DNA of 61,158 bases, filler included, from Pirum gemmata (GCA_002812295.1; 17 parts of 17 records of this genome joined end to end with filler, not necessarily neighbours in it), one strand, 5' to 3'; counted from the first letter of the whole stretch, positions 3,274 to 6,252 are shown. Translations and numbers: made by a program. The notes: generated by a model from the letters alone, not told the origin.

Positions 3274-6252
3274 ATGATGAAATCCTTGACAAAAACAAAA
3301 AACAACGAGGTTGTGCCTTTAAAATATAACAAAAAGAATAACAAACACAAAAAAAAATTAAAGAATATCCCTGATCATGCTGTTGTCCATATTGATGATG
3401 TAACATCAGACTCTAGTTCCAATTCTGCATTGAGAGTGATAAAATTTAAATCCAGAGATGAATTAGTCAGAGTTTTATGTAATGCTATAAAACATCACAA
3501 AGATACAGTAAGTTAGCTTTATTGTTTCTGCTATTGTTACCAGTGTATTATTATTATTATTATTATTATTGGAATTTATTATTTTAATTTTTTTATTTTA
3601 TTTATTATTATTATTTATTATTATTTATTGACTTGATTTATTTTATTTATTTTATTTATAAAAAGGAATCTTTACTAGAAAAAAGAGGAAACATAATGAA
3701 AATAGAATCGATGAAAATGGATATAAAACATAAATTTTTAAGCGAAGAAGACATTAATAACAATATCCATGAGCTAGTTGAAATTTTAAAATTTGTTATC
3801 TCCAAACCAGTAATTAAAAAAGAAACTATGAAAAAATTGACTAAAAACATAAACAATGACAAAAAGTTACAACAAGAATTCGGTAAGATAAAATTAAATA
3901 AACGTGATATCATAATAAGCTTAATAACACTGATTGTTACCTTGGCAGAAGCTCAGAGTAAAAGTATAAACGAAATAGCTTGTCATTTCGTTCCATTGCT
4001 ATTTTCAGAGGGAAGTGTAGAAACACAATCTAAATTATTTTCCAAAGTTATCCAATTAGAATTACCGGATATCGATGCTATGATTAAAGGTCGTCAAGAA
4101 AAGAAAAGTAAAATCATAATTAACAATAAACCCAACTTGATTAGTGAAGATGCTACAGAAAAACTTCCCGATGTTAAAATAATAGAAAAAGAACAAGCAG
4201 TTGTAGAACAAGAACAAGCGGTTGTTAAGAAAGAAGTGGATACTACTACTGATTTTTTAAGTGTTAGTGCTGTCAAATTTTTAGTCGAAGAGGACGACGA
4301 TGTAGATAATGAAATCCAGTTACCAAAGCCAATACCCGAAAGCGTCGAATACAACCCTAACGCAGAAACAAAAAAAGTTTACTCTGCTAGTAGTGCTAGT
4401 GTTAGCAGAGTAAACAGTGTTTTAGGCACCAATAGTGTCTCCAGAACCAATAGTGTTCCATCCAATGATGCGACCCTCAGGAAAACTTCTTCAGTAAAAT
4501 ACCTAAAGCGTAGTAGCACCCCAACTAGTCCTACTAAATCTAAAAACTCGGAAAATAATAGAAGCGTTAGCCCAAAAAGTGAAAGAAAGTCAAGTCCTAA
4601 GACAGAAAGTAAGTCTGGCGTTCGGTACGTAAAACGAACAAAAACGCCGGATACGCAAAATCTATCAGTTTCGGAAGTACGTTCAGATTCGGACGAGCCT
4701 GATTTGAAAGTTTTGCGATCTCCATCTTTAAAAAAATGTAGTAGTGATATTATGTCTAAGAATGCAGTGAACGGTACTGCCCCCCAATTAAGAAAATGCC
4801 AAAGTTCTGGATCGATTGATAAGGTGAAAAATATTGACAGAGTTATTGAATCGTTTTCCAAAAAGGTTTATTTGTTTGTTTGTTTGTTTTTTCATTATTT
4901 TTATGTTTATTATTAATTTATTTATTATCATTATTTAAATTATTATTATTGTTATTACTGTCATGAATATATTATTATTATTGTTGTTGTTAGAAAAATT
5001 GTTGTTCTTATTCTCGTTTCTCAAATACATTTTATTTTGTTATTCTTTTTTAAAATTAAAATATTGCATCCTTGAGAATATATTTACATAATACTAACTT
5101 CTACCTCTTAACCGGTTTTAATTATAGATTGTACATGACGTAATCAAATATAACAACGGTGCCGTAATAATCGATAACGGCAGTGGCATACTAAAGGCAG
5201 GTTTTGTAAGTGATCGTACTCCTCGCGTTTCTTTTCCAACTGTTGTTGGTATGCCTAGATACCAAAGTGCTTTATCTTCCGATGATAAAGAACATTACGT
5301 TGGTTTTGAATCTCAATCAAAGGGGCACTATTTAAGTTTAAAACAACCTATCGAACGTGGTTTAATTACTGATTGGGATGTTATGGAAAAAATATGGCGT
5401 CATACATTTTACAATGAATTGGCAATTCAACCAGAAGAACATCCTGTTTTGCTCACAGTATCTCCTTTAACTCCAAAGGCAAATAAAGAACGCATGACTC
5501 AAGTTATGTTTGAAGTATTCCACGTTCCATTTTTGTTTATCGTGGAAACTCAAGTTTTGTCCTTGTATGCCAACTCTGGTTCCTTGACTGGGATAGTATT
5601 GGATTCTGGTGAGGGTGTTACTACTGCTGTCCCAATTTACGAAGGCCATGTTCTACCTCACGCTGTCACTACTCTAGACCTTGCCGGTAAAGACTTGTCC
5701 AACTACATGCTTAACTTATTAGCTGCTAAGGGCTACACTTTTGCTGATGAAAATATCGGGCAATCCGTTAAAGAAAGCCTTGGTTATATTGCTGTAGATT
5801 ATGAAAATTACAATCGCTCGAGTGGTATGGAAAGAAGTCATAAGTTAGCTGACGGGAAAGTAATTTCACTTGATAAAGAATGCTTCAAATGTCCAGAAGC
5901 TTTATTTCAACCCAGCTTATTAGGGAAACTAACACCTGGTATACACAAAATGATACACAGTTCTATAGAAAATTGCGATTTTTCCATCAAACGTCAAATG
6001 TATAGTAATATAGTATTGACTGGTGGCTCAACCTTATTTAACGGGTTATCAGCTAGACTGAAAAAAGAACTTGCTGTTTTAGCCCCTGCTGTAGAACACT
6101 ATATAAATATAGTAGCACATCCAGAAAGAAAAAATATATCTTGGACAGGTGGTTCAGTATTGGCTTCTTTAACTCATTTCCAAAAATTATGGATTTCACG
6201 ATACAACTACGAAGTTAGTGGCCCGGGTATTGTAAATAGAAAATGTTTTTAA
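3274..6252 (+). CDS. Degenerate RhoGAP domain + Ser/Lys/Pro-rich linker + C-terminal divergent actin; exons 3274-3507, 3666-4865, 5128-6252 (about 852 aa, possibly 5'-incomplete)
   Basis: Both introns are phase 0 and keep frame: ACA|GTAAGT..AAAAG|GAA and AAG|GTTTAT..TACTAAC(5092-5098)..TATAG|ATT. Exon 3 reads IVHDVIKYNNGAVIIDNGSGILKAGF through to RKCF with no Met before the actin P1 loop. The N-terminal part follows RhoGAP consensus spacing. Confidence 0.8.

What the first reader, a model, noticed from the sequence alone, without database searches (positions are those of the whole stretch)
3274..6252. Hidden fusion gene: pseudo-RhoGAP domain spliced in frame to a complete actin
Seen: three ORFs that look separate join through two phase-0 introns, one with a perfect TACTAAC branch point. 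The actin fold's true N-terminus (AVIIDNGSGILKAGF) has no Met of its own, so it must be translated from upstream exons. Knowledge-based: ELVRVLCNAI..DT|ESLLEKRGN..NIHELVEILK..KPVI..RDIIISLITLI..NEIACHFVPLLF follows RhoGAP consensus (EGLFRxSG, DVHxVASLLK, PEPLI, NLAIVFAPTL), with Glu at the arginine-finger position. Inference: a Rho-binding, probably GAP-dead domain tethered by about 280 disordered residues to an actin could couple Rho GTPases directly to filament ends or nucleation. Actin fusions I know (Dictyostelium filactin, primate POTE-actin) use other partners.
Basis: partly seen in the sequence, partly recalled or inferred. Interest (0 to 1): 0.88.

Follow-up and report, generated by a model that had tools for sequence, protein, structure and literature searches.

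The report
Actin fused to a dead RhoGAP
A single-celled relative of animals has one spliced gene that joins a worn-down domain resembling a Rho-switch regulator to an actin that has lost its ATP-splitting residues, so the protein is likely a two-part non-enzymatic scaffold that would place an actin mimic where Rho signalling happens.

Summary
The fusion is real. Exons 3274-3507, 3666-4865 and 5128-6252 splice in frame to 852 aa. One 2451-nt contig of run X1 (guessed RNA) joins both junctions exactly. The same model already exists as EukProt Pgem_evm1s10238 of Pirum gemmata, labelled only 'Actin'. Residues about 59-193 are a remote RhoGAP-like domain. Pfam, PDB sequence and fold searches miss it, but the ESM Atlas points to RhoGAP (0.91; 25 of 30 hits). 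A RhoGAP profile built here fits end to end above 300 of 300 shuffles and 197 of 197 decoys. The arginine finger is Glu83, and only 2 of 6 Rho-contact residues remain, so Rho binding is open. It is likely a double pseudoenzyme. No orthologue and no paper on this architecture was found. The scan earlier noted another spliced long-N-terminus actin in a foraminiferan, with no RhoGAP mentioned. Verdict: new variant of a known kind, interest 0.62.

The parts
3274..3507 (+). Exon 1 (aa 1-78): basic N-terminal stretch (13 K/R in the first 58 aa) and first helix of the RhoGAP-like domain
   Evidence: 3297-3507 covered by X1 record 1; the start codon itself is not covered by that contig
3508..3665 (+). 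Intron 1, 158 nt, phase 0, GTAAGT...AG
   Evidence: skipped by X1 record 1, record positions 211 to 212
3448..4010 (+). RhoGAP-like domain, aa about 59-193, spanning intron 1. E83 (3678) at the arginine finger; K120 (3789) and P188 (3993) kept; E181 and C184 in place of N391 and V394
3666..4865 (+). Exon 2 (aa 79-478): rest of the RhoGAP-like domain, then the linker
4011..4865 (+). Linker of about 285 aa: acidic part (226-300), then Ser/Thr- and Lys/Arg-rich part (301-478; 52 S+T of 178) with five [LV][KR][KR][TSC] words; likely disordered (from composition only)
4866..5127 (+). Intron 2, 262 nt, phase 0, GTTTAT...AG, with TACTAAC at 5092-5098
   Evidence: skipped by X1 record 1
5128..6252 (+). 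Exon 3 (aa 479-852): full-length divergent actin fold ending RKCF. Q137T (5548), H161T (5623), H73R (5356), N111T (5470), R177T (5671); D-loop hydrophobics lost; residues 201-203 deleted
6253..6345 (+). Likely 3' UTR with AATAAA at 6293
   Evidence: covered by X1 record 2 and X2 record 5; motif

Best explanation
This is one spliced gene whose protein joins a likely GAP-dead RhoGAP-like domain, through a long and likely disordered linker, to an actin that has lost its ATP-hydrolysis residues, and it likely works as a targeted actin mimic: the front half would bring it to a Rho-marked or membrane site, and the actin half, predicted to hold ATP without turnover, would bind a filament end or actin-binding proteins instead of building ordinary filaments. 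Shown: splice structure, residue losses, remote RhoGAP similarity. Inferred: (1) no GAP activity, from E83; (2) ATP held but not cycled, from Q137T and H161T with the nucleotide pocket kept, as in Arp4; (3) poor growth at its pointed face, from the eroded D-loop, R62G, the 201-203 deletion and P243A, which would make it a pointed-end cap or seed; (4) targeting by the RhoGAP-like domain and the basic N-terminus; (5) tuning by phosphorylation of the linker. Steps 3 to 5 are the weakest.
For: Splicing. RhoGAP-like: Atlas top hit 0.91, 25 of 30 hits RhoGAP; end-to-end profile score -0.3 against shuffles -34.0 +/- 6.6, reached by 0 of 300 shuffles and 0 of 197 real-protein decoys; each half alone beats 150 of 150 shuffles (z 4.5 and 3.2); hhalign collinear over 116 columns, P 0.0039. 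Finger Arg is in 65 of 65 profile rows that cover the column, Glu here. Actin: nucleotide contacts 17 of 20 kept against 201 of 370 overall; Q137, H161, H73, N111, R177 and R183 are invariant in 46 of 46 conventional actins and all changed here. It is the only one of 239 fetched actin-bearing proteins with Q137, H161, H73, R177 and N111 all changed (first match per protein). PMC3510490 (passages) says T142 at the Q137 position leaves ATP a structural role in Arp4. PMC2386819 (passages) gives the precedent of an arginine-less RhoGAP-like domain on an actin nucleator. PMC8291977 (abstract, introduction) shows an N-terminal extension targeting a non-canonical Arp.
Against: Only 2 of 6 named Rho-contact residues are kept. 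Pfam, PDB sequence search and two homologue searches give no RhoGAP hit. hhalign probability is only 8.6%. The Atlas hit shares 164 features, under the 170 typical of true family members. MAFFT puts the C-terminal half in another register. Erosion of the pointed face is not significant on near-invariant columns (9 of 20 against 161 of 244, P 0.087), and the barbed face is kept only at the background rate (28 of 41, P 0.6). The enrichment of hydrolysis-site losses depends on the residue set: P 0.0006, 0.019 or 0.23. Arp8 has changed catalytic residues yet shows low basal ATPase activity (PMC3510490, passages). There is no orthologue to show which surfaces are conserved.
Confidence: 0.45

Rival explanations
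1. The RhoGAP-derived domain no longer binds any Rho GTPase. It is a leftover helical interaction module, and the protein is an ordinary non-canonical Arp with a long targeting extension, like Arp53D.
For: R282, R323, N391 and V394 equivalents are lost. The RELPEP segment is degraded or deleted. The Atlas neighbours of the actin part are non-canonical Arps: ArpT2-like, Arp53D-like, ACTL7A.
Against: K120 and P188 are kept and the whole domain still fits the profile. Arginine-less RhoGAP domains such as OCRL1 still bind Rac-GTP (PMC8305018, passages).
Confidence: 0.3
2. The actin half co-polymerises as a minor subunit and hangs the N-terminal module off the filament, as a tagged actin would; without hydrolysis it would leave stable ATP-state patches.
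For: The fold is full length with an intact C-terminus. Lateral contacts are kept at 20 of 34 and the barbed face at 29 of 49. Actin's N-terminus lies on the filament surface (recalled).
Against: The D-loop residues V45-M47 are replaced or deleted, R62 is Gly, T201-T203 are deleted and P243 is Ala; these are long-pitch contacts (ranges recalled).
Confidence: 0.12
3. It is a chance, lineage-specific chimera (an actin copy landed behind a decaying RhoGAP gene) that is transcribed but drifting without a function.
For: It is a singleton cluster with no relative of the N-terminal domain in 696 candidates or 1.84 billion representatives. Both domains have lost catalytic residues. The actin part is a single exon.
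Against: An open 852-codon frame survives a branch of 2.36 changes per column. The nucleotide pocket is kept at 17 of 20 (P 0.12 on near-invariant columns). Both introns are spliced.
Confidence: 0.08
4. The domain is an active but atypical GAP, with R85 two residues downstream serving as the finger.
For: K84-R85-G86-N87 lies at the finger loop and resembles the RKNGN loop of several profile rows. PMC2386819 keeps open a non-standard mechanism for class III formins.
Against: Three independent alignments put E83 on the Arg column. An acidic residue there would oppose the phosphate (inference).
Confidence: 0.05

Closest known systems
Plant class III formins (pseudo-RhoGAP + FH2; PMC2386819, passages read)
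   Same: N-terminal RhoGAP-like domain lacking the arginine finger, joined to an actin-acting module; proposed there to keep a link between Rho and actin.
   Different: Their effector is an FH2 nucleator, here it is an actin fold itself. They lose the conserved Lys, which is kept here (K120). They occur in several species; this is a singleton.
Dictyostelium filactin (PMC2441452, passages read)
   Same: Actin domain at the C-terminus of a long protein.
   Different: The paper calls filactin's actin domain extremely homologous to conventional actin; here identity is 54% with catalytic residues lost. The filamin-like partner domain of filactin is recalled, not read.
Non-canonical Arps such as Drosophila Arp53D (PMC8291977, abstract and introduction read), ACTL7A, ArpT2
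   Same: Young, fast-evolving actin derivatives with an N-terminal extension; nearest Atlas clusters of the actin part at 0.95. The Arp53D tail directs localisation.
   Different: Arp53D's extension is 40 aa; here it is about 489 aa with a folded signalling-type domain. They are described from animal germlines, this is a unicellular holozoan.
Arp4 and Arp8 (PMC3510490, passages read)
   Same: Thr at the Q137 position as in Arp4; H73 to Arg and loss of H161 as in Arp8; nucleotide pocket kept.
   Different: No large insertions here, and far closer to conventional actin (top 60 of 149 PDB matches are all conventional actins). The likeness is probably convergent (inference).
Arginine-less RhoGAP domains (OCRL1, ARHGAP36, DEPDC1-type) and p85 BH (PMC8305018, passages read)
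   Same: RhoGAP-derived domain without catalytic capacity.
   Different: None is described there as fused to actin. This domain is too divergent for Pfam PF00620.
Primate POTE-actin (recalled; the name appears only in a hit label)
   Same: Actin fused behind an unrelated N-terminal module.
   Different: Ankyrin partner and near-intact beta-actin (recalled).

Membership tests
RhoGAP domain (PF00620) | Match to the family model at its curated cut-off | tested here: not met
   No PF00620 row at E up to 10 for exon pieces, P0044 or aa 48-226
RhoGAP domain (PF00620) | Collinear similarity over the whole domain | tested here: met
   End-to-end profile fit: 0 of 300 shuffles and 0 of 197 decoys reach it; both halves separately; hhalign P 0.0039, probability 8.6%; Atlas 0.91. 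MAFFT gives another register for the second half
RhoGAP domain (PF00620) | All-helical RhoGAP fold | tested here: inconclusive
   Single-sequence AlphaFold2 models, pLDDT 52 and 47, all helical; no significant fold match
RhoGAP domain (PF00620) | Arginine finger (R282 of p50RhoGAP) | tested here: not met
   E83; Arg in 65 of 65 profile rows covering the column
RhoGAP domain (PF00620) | Conserved Lys319 and binding residues R323, N391, V394, P398 | tested here: not met
   K120 and P188 kept; R323 equivalent lost, E181 and C184 at the other two; list from PMC8305018
RhoGAP domain (PF00620) | Binds a Rho GTPase and stimulates hydrolysis | not testable with these tools
   Needs pull-down and GAP assay
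Actin superfamily (PF00022) | Full-length actin fold match | tested here: met
   E 1.6e-107, model positions 4-410 of 410
Actin superfamily (PF00022) | Nucleotide-binding loops | tested here: met
   17 of 20 positions kept; D157E, R210Q, M305L differ (position list recalled)
Conventional actin | High identity to other conventional actins | tested here: not met
   Mean 54%, best 55% against 46 actins that average 83% to the reference; terminal branch 2.36 against a median of 0.075
Conventional actin | Q137 and H161 (hydrolysis); H73, N111, R177 (phosphate exit) | tested here: not met
   T, T, R, T, T in ungapped local alignments; roles from PMC3510490 and PMC10643162
Conventional actin | Polymerises into filaments | not testable with these tools
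   Sequence only: pointed face 11 of 32 kept, barbed face 29 of 49
Arp1 (centractin) or other canonical Arp | Closer to that Arp than to conventional actin | tested here: inconclusive
   The best 60 of 149 PDB matches are conventional actins. No Arp1 row was seen, none was in the tree, and the tree placement is open
WH2 actin-binding motif (linker) | Amphipathic helix followed by an LKKT-type word (consensus recalled) | tested here: inconclusive
   Five LKKT-like words against 0.41 expected, 0 of 2000 shuffles (pattern chosen after seeing the sequence). No Pfam WH2 hit and no preceding helix by eye

The most novel reading that the evidence does not exclude
A Rho-GTP-gated, one-chain actin nucleator or pointed-end cap: the dead RhoGAP domain reads active Rho at the cortex and delivers an ATP-locked actin mimic, helped by LKKT-like words in the linker that recruit monomers. 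This would be a third way, beside formins and Arp2/3, to couple Rho to new filaments, in an ichthyosporean, a group where actin drives cellularisation.
Probability: 0.15. Interest if true: 0.9.

Novelty: new variant of a known kind. Interest (0 to 1): 0.62.

Why it matters
Actin rarely tolerates fusion, and known fusions carry a near-normal actin or a short tail. Here a signalling-type domain and an actin fold sit in one chain and both have lost their catalytic residues. If the protein links Rho to filament ends, it is a natural minimal Rho-to-actin coupler that converges on plant class III formins. It is also a natural variant that has dropped the hydrolysis and phosphate-exit residues together, useful for testing what ATP turnover does for actin. 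Ichthyosporeans are animal relatives whose cellularisation depends on Arp2/3, formins and myosin II, with Rho-family genes peaking late (shown for Sphaeroforma arctica, PMC6855841, passages read). The limits are that it is known from one species and that no function is tested.

Tried and rejected
No whole genome was held, so paralogues, a parent RhoGAP gene and Pirum's own Rho proteins could not be searched. Pfam gave no RhoGAP hit, only a weak ETRAMP row that I treat as chance. PDB sequence search of aa 48-226 gave 4 chance rows. Homologue search of aa 48-226 found only P0044 among 696 candidates of 465-1481 aa; shorter and longer proteins were not searched for this part. phmmer of the exon-2 part alone (145 aa, without exon 1) found 0 among 1.84 billion representatives. 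Actin searches listed only 120 of 349 longer and 120 of 7178 near-length hits. None listed carries PF00620, and none with full coverage exceeds 55% identity except P0044; a RhoGAP-actin fusion among the unlisted rows is not excluded. AlphaFold2 models were low confidence and fold searches were not significant. p85 BH and chimaerin RhoGAP domains appear at ranks 22, 36 and 50 with E 1.5 or more and are not counted; best VIA Z was 6.5 with no RhoGAP in the top 50. Local HMMER scoring was weak: 8.0 and 6.1 bits, reached by 1 and 2 of 1000 shuffles. The complex prediction of aa 56-222 with a Rac-like stand-in from a viral contig gave no answer. No listed run is on record as RNA. X2 laid only on 6138-6345 although it holds 0.83 of the words, close to the exonic share 0.86; I do not count it as support. 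Lack of intron cover in X1 is not used as evidence against other isoforms. The silent-stretch control for X1 could not be run. Viral contigs held no relative of this actin or of the RhoGAP alignment. No strict VxxLxxxFE-type filament-binding motif was found in aa 1-490 (motif from PMC13364712, passages). The tree (19 rows, 15 picked from the conventional actins fetched, no Arp1) did not place the actin. Paper searches (listings only, open-licence library) showed no RhoGAP-actin fusion and nothing on this gene. No supplements were read; gene tables of Pirum papers might list it.

Full report
Setting. The window is AT-rich eukaryotic DNA. It is not one chromosome stretch: 16 linkers of N44-TTAATTAATTAA-N44 join 17 pieces of 3.1 to 5.3 kb. 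The gene fills piece 3209-6351, so the other genes of the window are not shown to be its neighbours. No whole genome was held. A homologue search returned a protein 100% identical to the actin part, P0044, named Pgem_evm1s10238 in EukProt, entry EP00122_Pirum_gemmata. That Pirum gemmata is an ichthyosporean is stated in PMC6855841 (passages).

The splice structure. The three exons are 234, 1200 and 1125 nt. Both introns are GT-AG, phase 0 and AT-rich, and the joined frame gives 852 aa. TACTAAC lies 29 nt before the second acceptor. The two ATGs in the actin frame inside intron 2 hit stops before 5128. P0044 has the same sequence by eye but ends six residues early, at 846 aa. Of 2 runs that hold the stretch, X1 has one contig of 2451 nt, depth 84, with no other letters, that passes from 3507 to 3666 and from exon 2 to exon 3; its length equals the spliced length exactly. 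A second X1 contig runs through the stop into the 3' region. X1 is only guessed to be RNA, and the control on a silent stretch could not be run, so a processed DNA copy remains formally possible. An intron-free contig with both GT-AG cuts is still best read as mRNA. It also argues against a misassembly of the short scaffold. X1 and the gene model may share data. The contig begins after the ATG and an AG lies at 3265-3266, so the true N-terminus may be longer.

The N-terminal domain: standard searches. These fail. Pfam has no RhoGAP row, PDB sequences give chance rows, and no homologue exists among 696 candidates or 1.84 billion representatives. Single-sequence AlphaFold2 gives all-helical models of pLDDT 47-52 with no significant fold match. 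The ESM Atlas, by features, ranks RhoGAP clusters first: 0.91, 25 of 30 hits, 164 shared features. The tool says shuffled proteins reach 0.9 in 4 to 10 of 100 cases and that parts of proteins were not calibrated.

The N-terminal domain: a direct test. A RhoGAP motif scan gave 115 metagenome loci. Of these 77 showed the motif in translation, 11 passed my length and finger-motif filter, and 8 remained after removing near-duplicates. Iteration on fragments gave a profile of 165 rows. Local scores were weak, 8.0 and 6.1 bits, reached by 1 and 2 of 1000 shuffles. Forcing the model core end to end gave -0.3 bits against -34.0 +/- 6.6 for shuffles (0 of 300 reach it, z 5.1), -37.2 for the reversed sequence, and a best of -13.7 among 197 windows of real non-actin protein; true RhoGAPs in the training set score 121 to 208. 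Each half alone beats 150 of 150 shuffles, z 4.5 and 3.2. hhalign gives a collinear match of 116 columns, P 0.0039, probability 8.6%. MAFFT agrees on the first half and places the second half in another register. The profile was seeded on the LKxYLRELP motif, so the invariance of its Lys and second Arg is built in. I put the odds of RhoGAP ancestry at about 85%.

Which RhoGAP residues remain. PMC8305018 (passages) names R282 and K319 as the defining pair and R323, N391, V394 and P398 as binding residues. Here they read E83, K120, lost, E181, C184 and P188. GAP activity is therefore unlikely. Rho binding is open: 2 of 6 are kept, yet that review notes that OCRL1 binds Rac-GTP without a finger.

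The actin domain. It matches PF00022 over model positions 4-410, and its best 60 of 149 PDB matches are conventional actins. Identity to 46 conventional actins averages 54%, no listed full-coverage hit exceeds 55%, and its branch is 2.36 changes per column against a median of 0.075, with no resolved place. Nucleotide contacts are kept at 17 of 20. Q137, H161, H73, N111, R177 and R183, each invariant in 46 of 46, read T, T, R, T, T and K, in ungapped surroundings for the five shown. PMC3510490 (passages) assigns hydrolysis to Q137 and H161 and reads T142 in Arp4 as leaving ATP a structural role; it also reports low basal ATPase for Arp8. PMC10643162 (passages) makes R177-N111 with H73-G74 the phosphate exit. 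Among 239 fetched actin-bearing proteins, 4 lack Q137 and 9 lack H161, and only this one lacks all five.

How far the losses exceed general divergence. This depends on the set, and I chose the sets after seeing the alignment. The results are 3 of 11 kept against 167 of 253 (P 0.019) for my first list of 12; 0 of 7 (P 0.0006) for a list trimmed afterwards; and 6 of 13 (P 0.23) for all residues named in the two papers, which includes binding residues. With recalled interface ranges, the pointed face is kept at 11 of 32 (D-loop hydrophobics gone, R62G, 201-203 deleted, P243A), the barbed face at 29 of 49 and the lateral face at 20 of 34. On near-invariant columns the pointed face gives P 0.087 and the barbed face is at background. 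The directional reading is a lead, not a result.

The linker. Residues 301-478 hold 52 Ser/Thr and 34 Lys/Arg in 178; disorder is inferred from this alone. Five [LV][KR][KR][TSC] words occur against 0.41 expected (0 of 2000 shuffles; pattern chosen after looking). They resemble the WH2 LKKT word but lack its preceding helix, and they fit basophilic kinase sites better (both consensuses recalled). No strict VxxLxxxFE motif (PMC13364712, passages) was found.

How it likely works. Both ends look like pseudoenzymes with intact folds. The simplest working model is a targeted actin mimic. The basic N-terminus and the RhoGAP-like domain would place it at a Rho-marked or membrane site, the linker would give reach and phosphoregulation, and the actin fold, holding ATP without turnover, would cap or seed a filament or occupy actin-binding proteins. 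I give this 0.45. A module that no longer binds Rho gets 0.3, co-polymerisation 0.12, a drifting chimera 0.08 and an atypical active GAP 0.05.

Comparison and novelty. It works most like plant class III formins, where an arginine-less RhoGAP-like domain sits before an actin nucleator (PMC2386819, passages), and like non-canonical Arps targeted by an N-terminal tail (PMC8291977, abstract and introduction; Atlas neighbours). Filactin has a long extension but a conventional actin domain (PMC2441452, passages). It is not a member of conventional actins or of active RhoGAPs by the tests above. Paper searches (listings only) showed no RhoGAP-actin fusion, none of the 240 listed actin hits carries PF00620, and the cluster is a singleton. 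An earlier scan note reports a spliced actin with a long N-terminus in a foraminiferan (unchecked), which suggests long actin extensions recur. The fused model is already public, but its RhoGAP-like domain and the catalytic losses are not annotated in what I saw. Verdict: real, new variant of a known kind, interest 0.62.

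Noticed in passing
window, whole: The window is 17 short scaffolds joined by artificial N44-TTAATTAATTAA-N44 linkers; gene neighbourhoods across these linkers mean nothing.
   Followed up: yes
P0044 against window 6232-6252: The EukProt model stops six residues before the real C-terminus of the frame (846 against 852 aa).
   Followed up: partly
window 22581-23723 (+) and 24295-25305 (-): Two similar secreted-looking proteins on one scaffold, each with His directly after a signal-like stretch (SHGTLKVP) and a later DHHGPC word. 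This recalls a copper His-brace as in lytic polysaccharide monooxygenases (recalled, untested).
   Followed up: no
window 20494-22386 (-) and 39751-41649 (-): Leucine-rich-repeat-like proteins with a transmembrane stretch and Tyr-rich tails, receptor-like by eye.
   Followed up: no
window 654-1292 (+): DUF202 membrane protein, E 8e-07; likely a VTC1-type subunit (recalled).
   Followed up: partly
window 12264-14057 (-): Long ankyrin-repeat protein with 84-nt tandem units.
   Followed up: partly
window 41975-44572 (+): An 865-aa frame with an N-terminal membrane anchor and two DxD-like words, probably a two-domain glycosyltransferase (by eye).
   Followed up: no
P0088, P0091, P0077: Tandem or long actin-like proteins that also lack both Q137 and H161 in the matched copy: loss of the hydrolysis pair recurs in divergent actins.
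   Followed up: no
L117-L122: Six viral-collection contigs, two labelled GVMAG, encode complete Rac/Rho-like GTPases with C-terminal CAAX-like ends.
   Followed up: partly
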